NCBI GenBank assembly: GCA_021296135.1
Contig: JAGWAZ010000018.1
Span: forward strand, 31,808 to 95,807
DNA length: 64,000 nt
Reading direction: 5' to 3'
From: Chlorobiota bacterium
GTDB lineage: Bacteria > Bacteroidota > Ignavibacteria > OLB7
The notes under the pieces are model-generated. The model was not told the origin of the DNA. It ran no database searches and saw only the letters and a program-made list of their open reading frames with translations. A program made the translations under genes and the position numbers. This document shows, one piece after another, positions 45,650 through 57,324 of this stretch (position 1 is its first letter; each line of letters starts with the position of its first letter).

Positions 45650-46100
45650 GGATGAGGGAAGTCAGAAGTAAGAAAGTCAGAAGCCCACATTCAAGTCTGA
45701 AGTGCAACAGGTGGAGGAGCTTTACCGCAATATACTTCCCAGGGTCTCTTCCACCCCAGACGAGCATTTCTATCTCCACATCGCTCACTCTGTTGAAGTC
45801 GGTCCCCTTTGGGAAGTACCGACGAATCAACCCGTTGCTCTGCTCGTTCGTTCCACGCTGTGAGGCACGATACGGGTCGGTGAAGTAGAACTCGATCCCC
45901 GGCTCTTCGGCTATCAGTTGATGCAAGGCAAACTCCTGTCGATAGGCCATAGTGCTTCGCTTTGATGGAGTTGTTATCACAAAGCTACGGCATCGGTTCG
46001 GCAAGAGGAAGCTTCCGGGCTTCCTCTTCAGCCTTCAGGCCGATTTTCCGTCGCCTTATGACTCCTCCGGCAACCGTTGCACTTCAGAGTTGAATTCGGG
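45650..46100 (-). mobile_element. IS30-family transposase C-terminal fragment (remnant; includes left direct repeat)
   Basis: [33 protein letters not shown] matches the hallmark IS30 catalytic-domain C-terminus (F-DPY-W-RGTNEN-NGLLRQY-PKGTD); no intact N-terminal domain. Confidence 0.6.
45916..46100. repeat. Direct repeat copy 1 (185 bp) of IS30-derived sequence; near-identical copy at 57139-57324
   Basis: Base-by-base comparison: ~172/185 identical, same orientation. Confidence 0.8.
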
Positions 46101-46303
46101 GTTTATAAGTGATTGATTCGGTATATTAGCAGTGATATTAAACCCGATTATCTACCGGGTAGTAAGGTTAATGTTTAAAAATTAGCTTGAGATGATTGTC
46201 CGGGCGGCTGGGTTTTTTGCAAAATAGGGGGAATTTGGTAGGATTGGTAAGTAAATAAGTACTTCTATTAATAATAAAACAAATCGGCACTTAAATTATA
46301 TAT

Positions 46304-48532
46304 ATGCAGAAAATTAAACTTACGGAGAATGAGAAGAGGGATGTGCTTAAATATATTGAGGCTGATAAACCACTGCCGGAAAAATATCGTTGGCTTTTGT
46401 TTGCAGACAAAAAACAAGTAGAGTTGGTGTGGCATGGAAAGACATCGGAAGTGACAAAAACGGTTCTGCCGTTTCAGACGATTGAGGTAGTAGACGAACC
46501 ACGTGCCGAAACCACAAAAGAGACCAAAGAAAATCCACAACAAGCCCTGTTTGATTTCGACGAACGAGGGCGGCAGATTTCCGGTTGGACAAACAAGCTC
46601 ATCTGGGGAGATAATAAACTGATTCTGTCCAGTCTTAAAAGCGGACCGCTCCGCGAGGAGATAGAGAAAGCCGGCGGACTTAAACTTATCTACATTGACC
46701 CGCCCTTTGATGTCGGTGCTAATTTTTCAATGAAAGTTGAAATCGGTGATGACGAGCTAACCAAAAAGCCGAATGTTTTGGAAGAGTTGGTCTATCGTGA
46801 CACCTGGGGTAAAGGCGCGGATAGTTTTATTGCGATGATATATGAGAGATTAAGTTTAATGCGTGACCTATTAGCCGACGATGGCAGTATTTATGTGCAT
46901 TGTGATTGGCGAGTGAATAGCTATATGCGGTTGGTGTTGGATGAGGTGTTTGGAAAGGATGACTATAGAAACGAAATTATTTGGCAAAGAGATGCCGTTG
47001 GTAAGGGAGGAAAGAAAATTTCAAAACAATGGTCAAAAGAAATTGATCACTTGCTGTGGTATTCAAATAGCAATAACTATTATTTTGAACAACAATTTAA
47101 ACAATCTGATGAATTGACACATACTCAACTTAAGGAATTTAGATATAAGGAAGACAACGGGCGTCTATTTAAAATAGTTACACTTGGTAATTACTCGAAA
47201 GATTCAATTGAGAAGATGCGTAAAAAAAATCTTATACATACAACATCAACAGGCAAAGAATATAAAAAATATTATCTGGATGAGTTTCAGTTAGCCATTG
47301 GATCACTATGGCATGATATACCTAATATTTCTCATGGTAAGAATCCAGAAGCCCTAAATTACCCCACCCAAAAACCCGAAAAGCTCCTTGAACGCATAGT
47401 CAAAGCATCTTCCAACGAAGGCGACCTAGTAGCCGATTTTTTCTGTGGTTCGGGTACTACTCTGGCAGTAGCGGAAAAACTGGGTCGCAAATGGATTGGC
47501 TCCGACCTGGGCAAGTTTTCTATTCATACTACTCGCAAACGGATGATTAGTGTGCAGAGAGAAATAAAAGAATCGGGTAAAGGTTTTCGGGCCTTTGAGA
47601 TTTTAAACCTCGGCAAGTATGAACGCCAACACTACATCGGAGTCAATGACAATCTGCGTGAGGAACAAAAGCAAAAACAGATAGCTGAAAAAGAGAATGA
47701 TTTTATAAAGCTCATCATCAAAGCGTATAAAGCCGAGGCGGTAGAAAACTTTAAAACTTTTGTCGCCAAGAAAGCCGGGCGGTTGGTGGCGGTCGGACCG
47801 ATTAATTTACCGACCTCGCGCCTTCTCGTGGAAGCGGTAATAAAAGAATGTATTGAAAAAAAGATTACCAAAGTGGACATTTTATCCTTTGAGTTTGAGA
47901 TGGGCTTGTTTCCCAAGATTCAAGAGGAAGCCAAAGGTAAGGGGATTGATTTGGCACTGAAGTACATACCACGGGAAGTTTTCGACAAGCGAGCGATTGA
48001 AAAAAATCAAATAGAATTCCATGATGTGTCATACATTGAAATTAAGCCCCACATAAAGCCGGCCGGAAAACGCACCCCGGGTACTGTGGCTGTTGAGCTG
48101 AAAGATTTCTCTGTTTTCTATAATCAGGATATTGTAGATAATGTGATTGCGGGTCTTAAAAAAGGCGCTCATAAGGTATTGGTTGAGGCAGGTAATATCA
48201 TTAAGGTAACCAAAGACAAAGACGGGGTTGTGAATCGTGAAGTGCTGACCAAAAAATGGACGGATTGGATTGATTACTGGGCGGTGGACTTTGATTTTGA
48301 GAGCAAGGAAGAGATTGTCCGCATTAAAAATGATGAGGGTGAAATTGAAAAAGTGTGGACTGGCGATTATATTTTTGAGAATGAGTGGCAGAGTTTTCGG
48401 ACCAAAAAAGATCGCTCGATCGAGCTTAAGAGTGTGAGCCGTGAATGTGGTGCCGGACGGCGCAAGATAGCCGTTAAGGTGGTTGATATTTTCGGCAATG
48501 ATACTATGAAAGTAATTGAGGTTAAAATATAA
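46304..48532 (+). CDS. mod: Type III restriction-modification system methyltransferase (Mod; beta-class N6A/N4C MTase)
   Basis: Motif IV YIDPPFDVGANF precedes motif I FFCGSGTTLAVAEKLGRKWIGSD (beta order); 5-nt gap to res. Confidence 0.85.
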   Translation: MQKIKLTENEKRDVLKYIEADKPLPEKYRWLLFADKKQVELVWHGKTSEVTKTVLPFQTIEVVDEPRAETTKETKENPQQALFDFDERGRQISGWTNKLIWGDNKLILSSLKSGPLREEIEKAGGLKLIYIDPPFDVGANFSMKVEIGDDELTKKPNVLEELVYRDTWGKGADSFIAMIYERLSLMRDLLADDGSIYVHCDWRVNSYMRLVLDEVFGKDDYRNEIIWQRDAVGKGGKKISKQWSKEIDHLLWYSNSNNYYFEQQFKQSDELTHTQLKEFRYKEDNGRLFKIVTLGNYSKDSIEKMRKKNLIHTTSTGKEYKKYYLDEFQLAIGSLWHDIPNISHGKNPEALNYPTQKPEKLLERIVKASSNEGDLVADFFCGSGTTLAVAEKLGRKWIGSDLGKFSIHTTRKRMISVQREIKESGKGFRAFEILNLGKYERQHYIGVNDNLREEQKQKQIAEKENDFIKLIIKAYKAEAVENFKTFVAKKAGRLVAVGPINLPTSRLLVEAVIKECIEKKITKVDILSFEFEMGLFPKIQEEAKGKGIDLALKYIPREVFDKRAIEKNQIEFHDVSYIEIKPHIKPAGKRTPGTVAVELKDFSVFYNQDIVDNVIAGLKKGAHKVLVEAGNIIKVTKDKDGVVNREVLTKKWTDWIDYWAVDFDFESKEEIVRIKNDEGEIEKVWTGDYIFENEWQSFRTKKDRSIELKSVSRECGAGRRKIAVKVVDIFGNDTMKVIEVKI

Positions 48533-48537
48533 ATTTT

Positions 48538-55875: not shown

Positions 55876-56157
55876 CGACCTGAAGAGAGGAAGTCATCTT
55901 GACACCGCTTTCGCTTTTGCCGAACGGCCAGAATTCTATAAGAACCCTTTGAATAAGATCTCATTATATCCACATTCTTCTTTATTTGAAGAATATTCCT
56001 TTTTCTGTTGAGTGTTTTATGATTTTCTGGACTCATTGTTCTCCTTTTCTGTGCTTCTTCGGTCTTTTTCGACCCAAAAGGACACACCTTTCCCCTTGGT
56101 TATACCTTTGACAGTATATACTCTGCCCTGAAAATATTCTACAACATACAATTGAAA

Positions 56158-56908
56158 TCAAATCGTAATTGATTCCGCTCCAAGGTCTTCGCTACTGCTT
56201 TGCTGTAATGCAATTTCTCTTTTAGCTAAGCAAAAGGATGTTCTACCTTGCAGCGTATTCGGGACCTCTTTTTGTTGCCTTTTTTTGGGTGTTGGACAGC
56301 TTCTTTCTCCTTGTCCCTTTCTCCAGTATACCATAGTATACTCCCTCCTTTCGAGCCTTTCGTTTATCACTCTTCTTCGAATAGGCGCTATCCCCGAATA
56401 CCGCCTTCTCATCTCCACTCAACAAAGCCTCTTTTACTTGTGAGTCATGAGGTCGGGCAGATGTAAAGGCGCGTTTGCGTATCAAAGTACTTCCTACATC
56501 GACACCTATATGCCCTTTGTATCGAAAATACTTCTTGCCTCCTTTGACTGTTGAATGTGCATCAGTATCTATTTGTGAGGAAGGATGCTCATCGAACGCT
56601 GCTCTTCGTTCTTTGCTCAATGCTCTTGTGGTCGATGGGATAATCGTGGCATCTACACAGGTACCCTTCTTCAACAGCAAACCCTTCGATTCTATAAAGG
56701 ATAAGATCAATGCAAATACCTTGTCATTGAGCTTCTCTTTTATCAACGACTCCTTAAAACGCCATATCGTGGTAAACTCTGGTACCGTTGTGGCATAATC
56801 GATCCCTGCAAAGCGCTGGAAACTCAAGCGATCATTCACCTGGTCTTCTAACTCAGGGTCGCTTAAATTATACAGGTGTTGTAAAAACAGCATTTTCACT
56901 TTGCTCAA
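56158..56908 (-). mobile_element. IS5/IS1182-like DDE transposase, probably degenerate (221-aa ORF + out-of-frame tail)
   Basis: MLFLQHLYNLSDPELEDQVNDRLSFQRFAGI (InsH-like N-terminus), CVDATII and GDSAY DDE signatures; C-terminal region absent/out of frame. Confidence 0.5.
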
Positions 56909-57138
56909 GAGGTCTCGATGGGGGCACTTCCGATGATAGGATTGGTCTTATCTACTACTTTGACCAGTTTCAACACCTCGTTCCAATCTACTATGGCGTT
57001 TATCTTGTCTAGTTTTACCGAAACTCTGCTGGGTTTTCTACTTTGACTTAGTTCTATGTCTGAAAAACTTAATTGGCTCATGATCGATTTTTTCTATAGA
57101 TTTACCAAAATGGATGCCCTTTTGCAAAGGGTTCTATT

Positions 57139-57324
57139 AGTTGATGCAAGGCAAACTCCTGTCGATAGGCCATAGTGCTTCGCTTTGATGGAGTTATTAT
57201 CAGAAAGCTACGGCATCGCTTCGGCAAGAGGAAGCTTCCGGGTTTCCTCATTCTGCCTTCAGGCCGATTTTCTGTCGCCTTATGACTCCTCCGGCAGCCG
57301 TTGCACTTCAGAGTTGAATTCGGG
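57139..57324. repeat. Direct repeat copy 2 (186 bp) of IS30-derived sequence (remnant only)
   Basis: Near-identical to 45916-46100; contains ...[16 protein letters not shown] coding remnant. Confidence 0.8.

What the first reader, a model, noticed from the sequence alone, without database searches (positions are those of the whole stretch)
45650..57324. ~11.4-kb mosaic defense island bracketed by direct repeats of an IS30 transposase fragment
Two same-orientation, ~93%-identical copies (45916-46100 and 57139-57324) of a sequence derived from an IS30-family transposase flank the segment. That segment holds Type III RM, an OLD-family nuclease, the ATPase/TOPRIM-like/DenV-like operon and an IS5-like transposase. 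Copy 1 retains ~90 codons of the transposase C-terminus ([29 protein letters not shown]); copy 2 is only the remnant. The island sits between housekeeping nrdJ and a hypothetical/pgm/eno block. The geometry suggests IS-mediated capture, or a composite-transposon-like unit that could be lost by recombination between the repeats.
Basis: seen in the sequence. Interest (0 to 1): 0.7.

Follow-up and report, generated by a model that had tools for sequence, protein, structure and literature searches.

The report
Strain-variable defence hotspot with IS30 relics
The two repeats are real leftovers of a small non-autonomous IS30-type jumping element, but what lies between them is an ordinary, partly decayed anti-phage gene cluster whose left 7 kb is swapped between strains, not a demonstrable mobile unit.

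Summary
Two direct repeats (45911-46100 and 57134-57324; 190/191 bp, about 95% identical) flank Type III R-M, an OLD-family gene, HEC-01, a DenV-like gene and an IS5 relic.

The repeat is the left end of an IS30-family deletion derivative (MITE): left terminal repeat (IRL), 5' leader, the first ~5 transposase codons, a shared deletion junction, then ~8 C-terminal codons. Copy 1 is a whole ~416-bp MITE with both terminal repeats (45685-46100). Copy 2 is cut by the IS5 relic.

Contigs from at least six haplotypes that encode the identical NrdJ protein all keep both copies and both outer junctions. Only 46101 to ~53200/53344 varies, always with defence genes. The variable part starts exactly at the tip of copy 1. 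It ends about 4 kb short of copy 2.

There is no target-site duplication, no empty site, no solo-repeat recombinant and no second location of the unit.

In this strain the island is decaying:
- OLD is frameshifted by a 34-bp deletion.
- HEC-01B is truncated by a 1.2-kb deletion, which also created the apparent DenV "operon".
- The IS5 transposase reading frame is interrupted by a stop codon.

Verdict: a defence hotspot at a synteny breakpoint, seeded with relics of a multi-copy IS30 element. The composite-transposon reading is geometrically possible but unsupported. Interest is low to moderate.

The parts
42082..45645 (+). nrdJ (class II ribonucleotide reductase), the conserved left flank. The protein is identical in all strain contigs.
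   Evidence: Synteny with the closest species (L020, 87% aa identity) ends about 12 bp after the stop codon.
45685..46100 (-). Copy 1: a complete ~416-bp non-autonomous IS30-family element (MITE). Right terminal repeat (IRR) tip at 45685, left terminal repeat (IRL) tip at 46100. It encodes the transposase start (MAYRQ) fused to the last ~57 in-frame codons. This strain has an extra ~30-bp deletion at 45761.
45911..46100 (-). Repeat unit, copy 1: IRL + 5' leader + first ~5 transposase codons + deletion junction + ~8 C-terminal-region codons.
   Evidence: Mapped on the full-length relative L104.
46101..53343 (+). The strain-variable cassette region. Its left limit is exactly the IRL tip. Its right limit is 53196 or 53344, depending on the strain. 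GC is low (31-43%).
46304..48532 (+). Type III R-M methyltransferase (Mod). The central target-recognition part, about 46951-47358, is replaced between strains.
   Evidence: (PDLC03633, 2e-108).
48538..51225 (+). Type III R-M restriction subunit (Res), 895 aa in every strain that carries it.
51361..53135 (+). OLD-family ATPase-TOPRIM nuclease gene. In this strain it is split into two ORFs by a 34-bp deletion near 52224. It is intact (603 aa) in strain N284.
53631..53725 (+). Stub (first ~32 codons) of an SNF2-type helicase of the kind found immediately upstream of HEC-01A in other genomes. This is a weak match.
   Evidence: tblastn E about 4e-5. Context.
53789..54928 (+). HEC-01A ABC-type ATPase (AAA_21/AAA_15). 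High GC. Constant in all strains.
   Evidence: (PDLC04180, 3.7e-158).
54925..55440 (+). HEC-01B (DUF4276, TOPRIM-like). It is truncated: 171 aa against 207-212 aa elsewhere, and it lacks the conserved C-terminal ~38 residues.
   Evidence: The 1218-bp deletion junction at 55429/55430 relative to strain sc350 is.
55437..55796 (+). DenV-like pyrimidine-dimer DNA glycosylase (Pyr_excise), followed by a terminator-like hairpin at 55853-55868.
   Evidence: Homologues elsewhere stand alone.
55937..57133 (-). IS5-family element relic. Inverted repeats lie around 55936-55957 and 57119-57140, so the ends are uncertain by about 7 bp. The transposase frame is interrupted by a stop codon in this strain. 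The element truncates copy 2.
   Evidence: NF033581, 181 bits.
57134..57324 (-). Copy 2: the left 191 bp of the same MITE (same deletion junction), with its IRL tip at 57324. The rest of the element, including the IRR, is absent from the window.
57498..57884 (+). DUF7009 gene, the first gene of the conserved right flank (followed by pgm 58334-59737 and eno 59861-61375 on the minus strand).

Best explanation
The segment is a population-level anti-phage defence hotspot in an uncultured Ignavibacteria/Kapaibacteria-like (Chlorobiota) bacterium. It sits at a chromosomal synteny breakpoint just downstream of nrdJ. It has three layers. (a) A low-GC cassette region (46101 to about 53200) is replaced between strains by other defence modules. 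(b) A high-GC remnant carrying HEC-01A/B plus a DenV-like gene is constant in the population; it looks like the remains of a helicase/methylase (Hma-type) system. (c) Relics of mobile elements are also present. The two repeats are two old insertions of one IS30-family deletion derivative (MITE) that is multi-copy in this species. Copy 1 is complete. Copy 2 was later cut by an IS5 element and lost its right half. Shown: the anatomy, the IS30 identity, the strain variability and the decay lesions. Inferred: cassette turnover happens mainly by homologous recombination with DNA from other strains, using the conserved flanks (nrdJ plus MITE on the left, the region upstream of HEC-01 on the right) and internal shared genes such as mod/res. 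Also inferred: IS30-type transposase chemistry created the MITE-tip junction at some point in the past, which would explain why variation begins exactly at the IRL tip and why no target duplication remains. The repeats are bystanders and landmarks rather than the engine of the island's mobility. Recombination between them could delete the island, but no such product is seen.
For: The IS30 family assignment and the full-length relative L104 (~1133 bp; HTH_38 + rve; NF033563 at 289.6 bits; 3-bp duplication CTT) come. Both copies share the same deletion junction. They carry fixed differences in all strains, so the duplication predates strain divergence and has not been homogenised. Strains with the identical NrdJ protein carry at least six cargo haplotypes. 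All cargo types start immediately after ...GAATTCGGG at 46100, in two junction classes. They rejoin the window at 53196 or 53344. HEC-01, DenV, the IS5 relic, copy 2 and DUF7009/pgm/eno are 98.5-99.7% identical in every contig that reaches them. The alternative cargos are also defence-related: a DrmD-like SNF2 helicase with a Type IIG enzyme, Ppl-like proteins, and Type III variants. Identity drops in the MITE and cassette region (96.6-98.8%) compared with nrdJ (99.8-100%), as expected for imported recombination tracts. Synteny with the closest species breaks about 12 bp after nrdJ, and none of 80 relatives has pgm/eno nearby. The IS is multi-copy, with many different flanks that are housekeeping genes. 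Decay lesions are documented.
Against: The left limit of variation coincides to the base with the IRL tip. Homologous recombination alone does not explain that, so a transposase-made junction must be assumed, and I cannot reconstruct it. The window's 46101-46283 has no counterpart in the other junction class, so the difference is not a simple adjacent deletion. One strain (sc1022/L018) has a longer IS30 copy, in the opposite orientation, abutting the very same right-flank base as copy 2. This shows the IS has been active at this locus, and a passive-relic picture does not explain it. No recombination event was observed directly, and all strain data are metagenome contigs.
Confidence: 0.7

Rival explanations
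1. The unit is a composite (compound) IS30 transposon. The 11.6-kb unit from the IRR tip of copy 1 (45685) to the IRL tip of copy 2 (57324) is, or was, mobilised as a whole by transposase from full-length copies acting in trans. It would move through the copy-out-paste-in 'Tn-circle' route described for IS30.
For: The copies are directly oriented and both outer tips are intact. Full-length or longer relatives are present in the same species population, and many insertion sites exist. IS30 is documented to join the terminal repeats of two distant, directly oriented copies and to excise any segment delimited by an IRL and an IRR (PMC9333248).
Against: There is no target-site duplication around the unit (CTG versus CTT), although this family makes a 3-bp duplication. 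Every contig that reaches either junction has the same flank sequence there, apart from the IS orientation variant in sc1022 at the right junction. The unit was not found elsewhere, neither in plasmid or phage collections nor in any other context. Strain variation does not respect the right repeat. Copy-specific fixed differences show the two copies have sat here since before strain divergence.
Confidence: 0.1
2. The repeats act mainly as substrates for homologous recombination. The 190-bp direct repeats let the cell delete the whole island (loop-out), giving an on/off polymorphism for the defence cluster.
For: The repeats are direct, about 95% identical, and contain perfect blocks of 30 bp or more. 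IS copies are known to provide homology for deletions (general knowledge; also stated in PMC9333248).
Against: None of the contigs fetched around nrdJ, DUF7009 or pgm shows the predicted product, which would be an uninterrupted MITE joined to ...GGG|CAGTCTATC. The two copies keep fixed differences with no sign of exchange. The repeat is short and diverged, so the rate would be low.
Confidence: 0.12
3. The IRL tip of the MITE is an active docking site. Defence cassettes arrive as IS30-bounded circles and integrate next to the resident terminal repeat (IR-targeting). Dimer dissolution follows, so that new cargo directly abuts the tip.
For: Two unrelated sequences abut the same tip base in different strains. 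IS30 has a documented preference for inserting next to its own terminal repeats, followed by excision of one copy. A second IS30 insertion at the identical right-flank base in another strain shows that tips or sites here are reused.
Against: Only two junction classes exist, so a single past event is enough. No IR-IR junction or tandem IS is seen in any strain. Other copies of the IS/MITE abut housekeeping genes, not defence genes. Most of the variation has internal breakpoints typical of homologous exchange: the mod target-recognition part, the region after res, and 53196/53344.
Confidence: 0.08

Closest known systems
IS30-family insertion sequences and their non-autonomous deletion derivatives (MITE-like elements)
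   Same: The terminal inverted repeats are about 26-35 bp. The transposase remnant matches NF033563. The full-length relative is ~1.13 kb with HTH_38 + rve and a 3-bp target duplication. The element is multi-copy with varied flanks.
   Different: The window copies are non-autonomous (416 bp and 191 bp) and have no target duplication. One is cut by an IS5 element. The lineage (Ignavibacteria/Kapaibacteria-like MAGs) and this particular deletion derivative are not, to my knowledge, described.
Defence islands / strain-variable defence hotspots at conserved chromosomal positions
   Same: Several defence systems are clustered. Their composition is foreign. The flanking core genes are identical between strains while the cargo differs. 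Mobile-element relics sit at the edges.
   Different: No integrase, tRNA or prophage/satellite backbone is present. One edge of the variable part coincides with an IS tip. The hotspot lies at a between-species synteny breakpoint.
Compound (composite) IS30 transposons and IS30 'Tn-circles' (Olasz/Kiss model, PMC9333248)
   Same: Two directly oriented IS30-type copies with intact outer IRR and IRL tips flank the cargo.
   Different: Neither copy encodes a transposase. There is no target duplication and no evidence of movement. The variable unit is not the bracketed unit.
HEC-01 (Hma-embedded candidate 01: ABC ATPase + TOPRIM-like DUF4276 protein; Payne et al. 2024 preprint)
   Same: HEC-01A and HEC-01B match the PADLOC models strongly. 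In other genomes close homologues sit next to SNF2 helicase and methylase genes.
   Different: Here the host helicase and methylase are reduced to stubs, HEC-01B lacks its C-terminus, and an unrelated DenV-like gene has been fused downstream by a deletion. HEC-01 gave no protection in the published assays.
Type III restriction-modification systems with allelic Mod target-recognition domains
   Same: The mod-res gene pair is present, and the central part of mod is swapped between strains while the ends stay 98% identical.
   Different: No simple-sequence tract was found in the 41-58 kb region that includes mod, so there is no sign of phase variation. The specificity is unknown.

Membership tests
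IS30 family (element from which the repeats derive) | DDE transposase with an N-terminal HTH and an rve-type catalytic core that matches the curated IS30 model | tested here: met
   NF033563 scores: full-length relative L104 289.6 bits (cutoff 80), the sc1022 fragment at this locus 106.4 bits, the window ORF 76.3 bits (E=3e-21, a fragment just under the cutoff). L104 has HTH_38 + rve.
IS30 family (element from which the repeats derive) | Terminal inverted repeats of about 20-30 bp at both ends | tested here: met
   IRL ...CCGTTGCACTTCAGAGTTGAATTCGGG and IRR ...CTGTTGCACTTCAGACTTGAATGTGGG. Flanks diverge immediately after GGG at 19 independent sites.
IS30 family (element from which the repeats derive) | Short (2-3 bp) target-site duplication | tested here: not met
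   It is met for the full-length relative L104 (CTT/CTT). It is not met for either window copy: copy 1 has AAC or AAG versus CTT, and the bracketed unit has CTG versus CTT.
MITE / non-autonomous IS derivative | Short element with both terminal repeats, no functional transposase, and more than one copy sharing the same internal deletion | tested here: met
   Copy 1 is 416 bp with both terminal repeats. Copies 1 and 2 share the junction [11 protein letters not shown]. A further derivative is seen in L111.
Composite (compound) transposon | Two IS copies flanking the cargo, with intact outer ends | tested here: met
   IRR tip at 45685 and IRL tip at 57324.
Composite (compound) transposon | Target-site duplication flanking the whole unit | tested here: not met
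   The flanks are CTG and CTT in transposase orientation.
Composite (compound) transposon | The same unit present at more than one location, or an empty site in relatives | tested here: not met
   Every strain contig that reaches either junction has the same flank sequence there (sc1022 differs only in the orientation of the IS at the right junction). No empty site was found. There are no matches in plasmid or phage collections. Relatives lack nrdJ-pgm synteny.
Composite (compound) transposon | Transposition demonstrated (circle junction or new insertions) | not testable with these tools
   This needs reads or an experiment.
Defence island / hotspot | Two or more defence systems clustered, with strain-to-strain replacement of content between conserved flanks | tested here: met
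   PADLOC hits. At least six haplotypes exist with the identical NrdJ protein.
Type III restriction-modification | Adjacent Mod (N6/N4 methyltransferase) and Res (ResIII helicase + endonuclease) genes | tested here: met
   PF01555 at 2e-41 and PDLC03633 at 2e-108. PF04851, the RE_endonuc/TnsA-like C-terminus and PDLC03648. Activity was not tested.
OLD-family nuclease / Gabija GajA | A single polypeptide with an ABC-type ATPase and a TOPRIM domain; for Gabija, also an adjacent GajB helicase | tested here: not met
   In the window the gene is split by a 34-bp deletion. An intact 603-aa allele exists in strain N284. No GajB-like helicase gene appears among the ORFs between res and HEC-01A, although no GajB-specific search was run. 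This makes it a stand-alone OLD-like gene, and here a pseudogene.
HEC-01 | ABC ATPase (A) followed by a DUF4276/TOPRIM-like protein (B) | tested here: inconclusive
   A matches PDLC04180 at 3.7e-158 and B matches PDLC04194 at 1.7e-54. However, B is truncated by ~38 conserved residues. A defence function for HEC-01 was not demonstrated in the source study.
T4 endonuclease V / pyrimidine-dimer glycosylase (Pyr_excise) | Match to PF03013 over the full domain | tested here: met
   95.8 bits against a cutoff of 23, covering profile positions 1-79 of 81. Catalytic residues were not checked.

The most novel reading that the evidence does not exclude
The tip of a fixed IS30-family MITE acts as a reusable docking point. 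Transposase from full-length copies elsewhere in the genome would use it to exchange defence cassettes through IR-targeting and dimer dissolution, making it an IS30-driven, integron-like platform for defence-gene turnover.
Probability: 0.07. Interest if true: 0.75.

Novelty: new member of a known kind. Interest (0 to 1): 0.3.

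Why it matters
The locus is a clean natural example of a defence locus turning over within one species of a poorly studied lineage. The neighbouring core protein (NrdJ) stays identical while at least six cargo versions coexist. It also shows how such loci decay, through a frameshifted OLD gene, a truncated HEC-01B and helicase/methylase stubs. The practical lesson is that IS fragments bracketing an island do not by themselves make it a transposon. 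Here the population data place the exchange boundaries elsewhere, and an apparent three-gene 'operon' turns out to be a deletion scar. The one non-trivial point is the base-exact coincidence of the variable edge with an IS30 tip, together with re-use of the same flank base by a second IS30 copy. This hints at IS30-type chemistry shaping the hotspot, but it is not established.

Tried and rejected
1. Empty-site test in related species. I scanned genome contigs with NrdJ and obtained 80 loci. None has DUF7009/pgm/eno or any island gene within 10 kb, so the test is uninformative about insertion. It instead reveals a synteny break right after nrdJ.

2. Exact-protein look-ups of window HEC-01A and of the DenV-like protein found no record.

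3. Simple adjacent-deletion origin of the two IRL-junction classes. The window's 46101-46283 has no homologue in the class 2 strains; homology resumes only about 20 bp before the mod start codon. Rejected.

4. Whole-unit inversion as the origin of the oppositely oriented IS in strain sc1022. That copy extends upstream of the MITE deletion junction (ETITTDNGK...), so it is not copy 1 flipped. Assembly chimerism is unlikely because IRR-specific bases lie within 14 bp of the flank.

5. Gene conversion between the two copies. Fixed copy-specific differences are present in all strains. Rejected.

6. DenV as an integral third gene of HEC-01. Homologues of each occur without the other, and the gene overlap here is a deletion junction. 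Rejected.

7. Structured RNA or tRNA at the borders. There were no Rfam hits at E<=0.1 over 40-64 kb and no tRNA in the window.

8. Plasmid or phage origin. Megablast of the whole segment found no match.

9. General association of this IS's tips with defence genes. Flanks of ten other copies are housekeeping genes. Rejected.

10. The target-site duplication of the IS5 relic could not be resolved. The 7-bp CTATWAG next to each end can be read either as IS5 repeat, as duplicated target, or as MITE sequence.

Full report
**1. The observation**

The two repeats exist. MAFFT and the repeat finder place them at 45911-46100 and 57134-57324, in the same orientation, 190/191 bp long and about 95% identical with one 1-nt indel. 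A 20-mer from their outer end (GTTGCACTTCAGAGTTGAAT) occurs three times in the window against 0 expected in shuffles. The third occurrence, at 45689-45708, is inverted.

- Type III mod (46304-48532) and res (48538-51225).
- An OLD/GajA-like ATPase-TOPRIM gene present as two ORFs (51361-52227 and 52227-53135).
- HEC-01A (53789-54928; PADLOC PDLC04180, E=3.7e-158).
- HEC-01B/DUF4276 (54925-55440).
- A Pyr_excise (DenV-like) gene (55437-55796).
- An IS5-family transposase relic (NF033581, 181 bits).

The composition is mosaic. The flanks are about 50-53% GC, 46-53 kb is 31-43%, and 53.5-55.5 kb is 57-61%.

**2. What the repeat is**

Read on the minus strand, the repeat starts with a terminal inverted repeat whose tip lies at 46100 (copy 1) and 57324 (copy 2). 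I call this the left terminal repeat, IRL. About 120 nt of leader follows, then ATG GCC TAT..., then sequence that continues in copy 1 as ...[47 protein letters not shown]....

A metagenome scan with the terminal repeat returned 19 loci. Many are contig ends with IRL-type or right-terminal-repeat (IRR)-type interiors and unrelated flanks. One contig (L103) is 99.9% identical to this species.

Locus L104 carries a full-length relative of about 1133 bp. Its 335-aa transposase begins MAYQHLSSEERYG.... It has HTH_38 + rve, scores 289.6 bits on NF033563 (cutoff 80), and is flanked by a 3-bp target duplication, CTT.

Mapping the window element on L104 shows a deletion derivative. IRL, the leader and the first ~5 codons (MAYRQ) are fused to the last quarter of the transposase and the IRR.
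- Copy 1 (45685-46100, ~416 bp) has both terminal repeats. It lies 40 bp after the nrdJ stop codon.
- Copy 2 contains the same deletion junction, so both are copies of one MITE-like derivative rather than independent decay products.
- Copy 2 stops at 57134, where an IS5-family element (about 55937-57133, with inverted repeats found) abuts it. No further MITE sequence exists on the other side of that element or elsewhere in the window.

About 40 of the 190 bp are coding. The rest is the IS left end.

**3. Population context**

Exact-protein look-ups with NrdJ, DUF7009 and PGM returned contigs from several metagenomes and one closed 3.4-Mb genome. I merged overlapping loci and compared them with the window.

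All contigs share nrdJ (99.8-100% DNA identity) and the MITE up to its IRL tip. Immediately after ...GAATTCGGG, two unrelated sequences occur:
- GTTT(T)ATAAGTG..., leading to Type III mod/res.
- CTTCATTTATCAACCC..., leading to an HTH_3 gene.

At least six haplotypes follow:
- Type III R-M + OLD (the window and N284).
- The same with a different mod target-recognition part and a different OLD allele (sc350).
- Type III R-M + a 1006-aa Ppl-like protein (ptg715).
- HTH + 299 aa + DrmD-like SNF2 helicase + Type IIG enzyme + two unknown proteins (sc349, sc351).
- HTH + 288 aa + 178 aa + Type III R-M + a Ppl-like 913-aa protein (N800).
- A variant of the last (sc5524).

All haplotypes rejoin the window at 53196 or 53344. 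From there on, HEC-01A/B, the DenV-like gene, the IS5 relic, copy 2, DUF7009, pgm and eno are 98.5-99.7% identical in every contig that reaches them.

The exchanged unit is therefore about 7 kb (46101 to ~53200). It is bounded on the left by the MITE tip and on the right by a point 4 kb short of copy 2. The two copies carry fixed, copy-specific differences in all strains, so both predate strain divergence and have not been homogenised.

**4. Is the island an insertion?**

A scan of 185,579 species genomes with NrdJ identified the lineage as Ignavibacteria/Kapaibacteria-like (Chlorobiota); the best hit has 87% aa identity. In none of the 80 loci is DUF7009, pgm, eno or any island gene within 10 kb of nrdJ.

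In the closest species, synteny upstream of nrdJ is preserved for about 10 kb and ends about 12 bp after the stop codon. That is within about 30 bp of the MITE's IRR tip. Downstream genes there are unrelated: a T9SS-sorted protein, DUF4253 and a HipA-like kinase.

The locus is therefore a between-species rearrangement breakpoint. There is no 'empty site' to compare with. This fits the lack of any target duplication:
- In transposase orientation, copy 1 is flanked by AAC (or AAG in the other junction class) and CTT.
- The whole bracketed unit is flanked by CTG and CTT.

**5. State of the cargo in this strain**

The OLD gene is split because the window lacks 34 bp that are present in strain N284, where the ORF is 603 aa.

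HEC-01B is 171 aa here, against 207-212 aa in strain sc350 and in two other genomes that carry close HEC-01A homologues. It lacks about 38 conserved C-terminal residues. The cause is a 1218-bp deletion at 55429/55430 relative to sc350. The ATGA overlap with the DenV-like gene is that deletion's junction.

Several observations place the high-GC block as the remnant of a helicase/methylase (Hma-type) system with HEC-01 embedded in it:
- Close homologues of the DenV-like protein are stand-alone genes in Gemmatimonadetes-type genomes.
- Close HEC-01A/B homologues (75-87% aa identity across several phyla) sit next to SNF2 helicase and methylase genes, with no DenV.
- A weak stub of that helicase's first ~32 codons lies at 53631-53725.
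- A DUF1156 stub lies in the extra sc350 segment.

HEC-01 itself gave no protection in the study that defined it (bioRxiv 10.1101/2024.01.29.577857).

The IS5 transposase frame carries a stop codon in the window. The MITE has an extra ~30-bp deletion at 45761. Only the Type III R-M, HEC-01A and the DenV-like gene look intact.

**6. Mechanism**

The anatomy and the population pattern are shown. The following is inferred.

*(i) Cassette turnover is mostly homologous replacement.* It would use conserved flanks and shared internal genes. There are several internal breakpoints: the mod target-recognition part at 46951-47358, the region after res at 51238/51395, and 53196/53344. Divergence is also higher in the MITE and cassette region (1-3%) than in nrdJ (0.2% or less).

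*(ii) The base-exact junction at the IRL tip, the missing duplications and the synteny break point to at least one past transposase-mediated rearrangement.* IS30-type elements produce deletions, inversions and fusions whose breakpoints lie at the tips of the terminal repeats. They can join the repeats of distant, directly oriented copies, and they can insert next to their own repeats (PMC9333248).

*(iii) The IS has been active at this very locus.* Strain sc1022 has the IRR of a longer IS30 copy (...ETITTDNGKEF...RLKNRPRKCLGWKRPWEVY) abutting the same flank base (|CAGTCTATCAGCC) as copy 2's IRL, in the opposite orientation. This is best read as an independent insertion into the same target.

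The composite-transposon reading is geometrically allowed, because the outer IRR and IRL tips are intact and transposase is available in trans. It lacks every positive sign, however: no duplication, no second site, no empty site, and a variable unit that differs from the bracketed unit. Loop-out deletion between the repeats is plausible chemistry, but no such product was seen in any contig. The docking-site idea is weakened in two ways. Only two junction classes exist, so one event suffices. And ten other copies of the IS abut housekeeping genes.

**7. Comparison with what is known, and verdict**

The parts are members of known kinds: an IS30-family MITE, an IS5 relic, Type III R-M, an OLD-family nuclease (a pseudogene here), HEC-01 (truncated) and a Pyr_excise glycosylase. 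The whole is a strain-variable defence hotspot.

Nothing similar at the DNA level is found in the plasmid or phage collections. There are no Rfam families or tRNAs at the borders.

Novelty is limited to a new IS30 derivative in a poorly sampled phylum and a well-documented example of hotspot turnover and decay. Interest is 0.3. The most novel reading that the evidence does not exclude is an IS30 tip acting as a cassette-exchange site, with a probability of about 0.07.

Noticed in passing
L018 (scaffold_1022) positions corresponding to window 57325; reverse-complemented contig bases 1-312: In one strain the flank base next to DUF7009 (|CAGTCTATCAGCC) is joined to the IRR of a longer, probably full-length IS30 copy in the opposite orientation to the window's copy 2. 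The contig ends inside the IS. This looks like a second, independent insertion at the identical site.
   Followed up: partly
outside the window at about 64.7 kb; ptg715 merged sequence 33756-33783 (= L015 around 5010-5035), also L103: A solitary 28-bp IRL, 100% identical to the MITE's IRL, lies about 7.4 kb downstream of copy 2 in inverted orientation, between the alanine dehydrogenase and Disulph_isomer genes. No other IS sequence is attached to it.
   Followed up: partly
window 41682-41879 (upstream of nrdJ): Strains sc350, N284 and sc349 carry a 198-bp tandem duplication of this stretch, about 200-400 bp upstream of the nrdJ start. The window, ptg715 and N800 have one copy.
   Followed up: no
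window 46951-47358 (inside mod): The central part of the Type III mod gene is replaced between strains (Mod lengths 673, 719, 740 and 742 aa) while the flanking parts stay about 98% identical. This is the usual signature of target-recognition-domain swapping.
   Followed up: partly
L012 / sc350 merged 23134-24351 (between window 55429 and 55430): Strain sc350 has 1218 extra high-GC bases here. They restore full-length HEC-01B and contain a DUF1156 (methylase N-terminus) stub but no long ORF. The rest of the segment is unexplained.
   Followed up: partly
window 53789-54928 and one search hits: HEC-01A is unusually conserved, at 75-87% aa identity in MAGs labelled Planctomycetota, Vicinamibacteraceae, Bryobacteraceae, Gammaproteobacteria, Nitrospiraceae and Methylomirabilis. 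This implies frequent recent horizontal transfer of this candidate system.
   Followed up: no
L111 (LXNJ01058357.1) 1-311: A second deletion derivative of the same IS has the same left deletion end (MITE position ~164) but lacks a further ~90 bp. The family therefore spawns several miniature forms.
   Followed up: no
L116 3785-3929 versus window 55970-56115: Another contig from the LXNJ01 metagenome has an IS30 IRL about 320 bp from a sequence 86% identical to the end of the window's IS5-like element. The two IS types may co-occur repeatedly.
   Followed up: no
window 53196-53630: About 430 bp of non-coding sequence of rising GC lies between the variable region's right limit and the helicase stub. 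It is conserved in all strains, has no Rfam match and has no assigned origin.
   Followed up: partly
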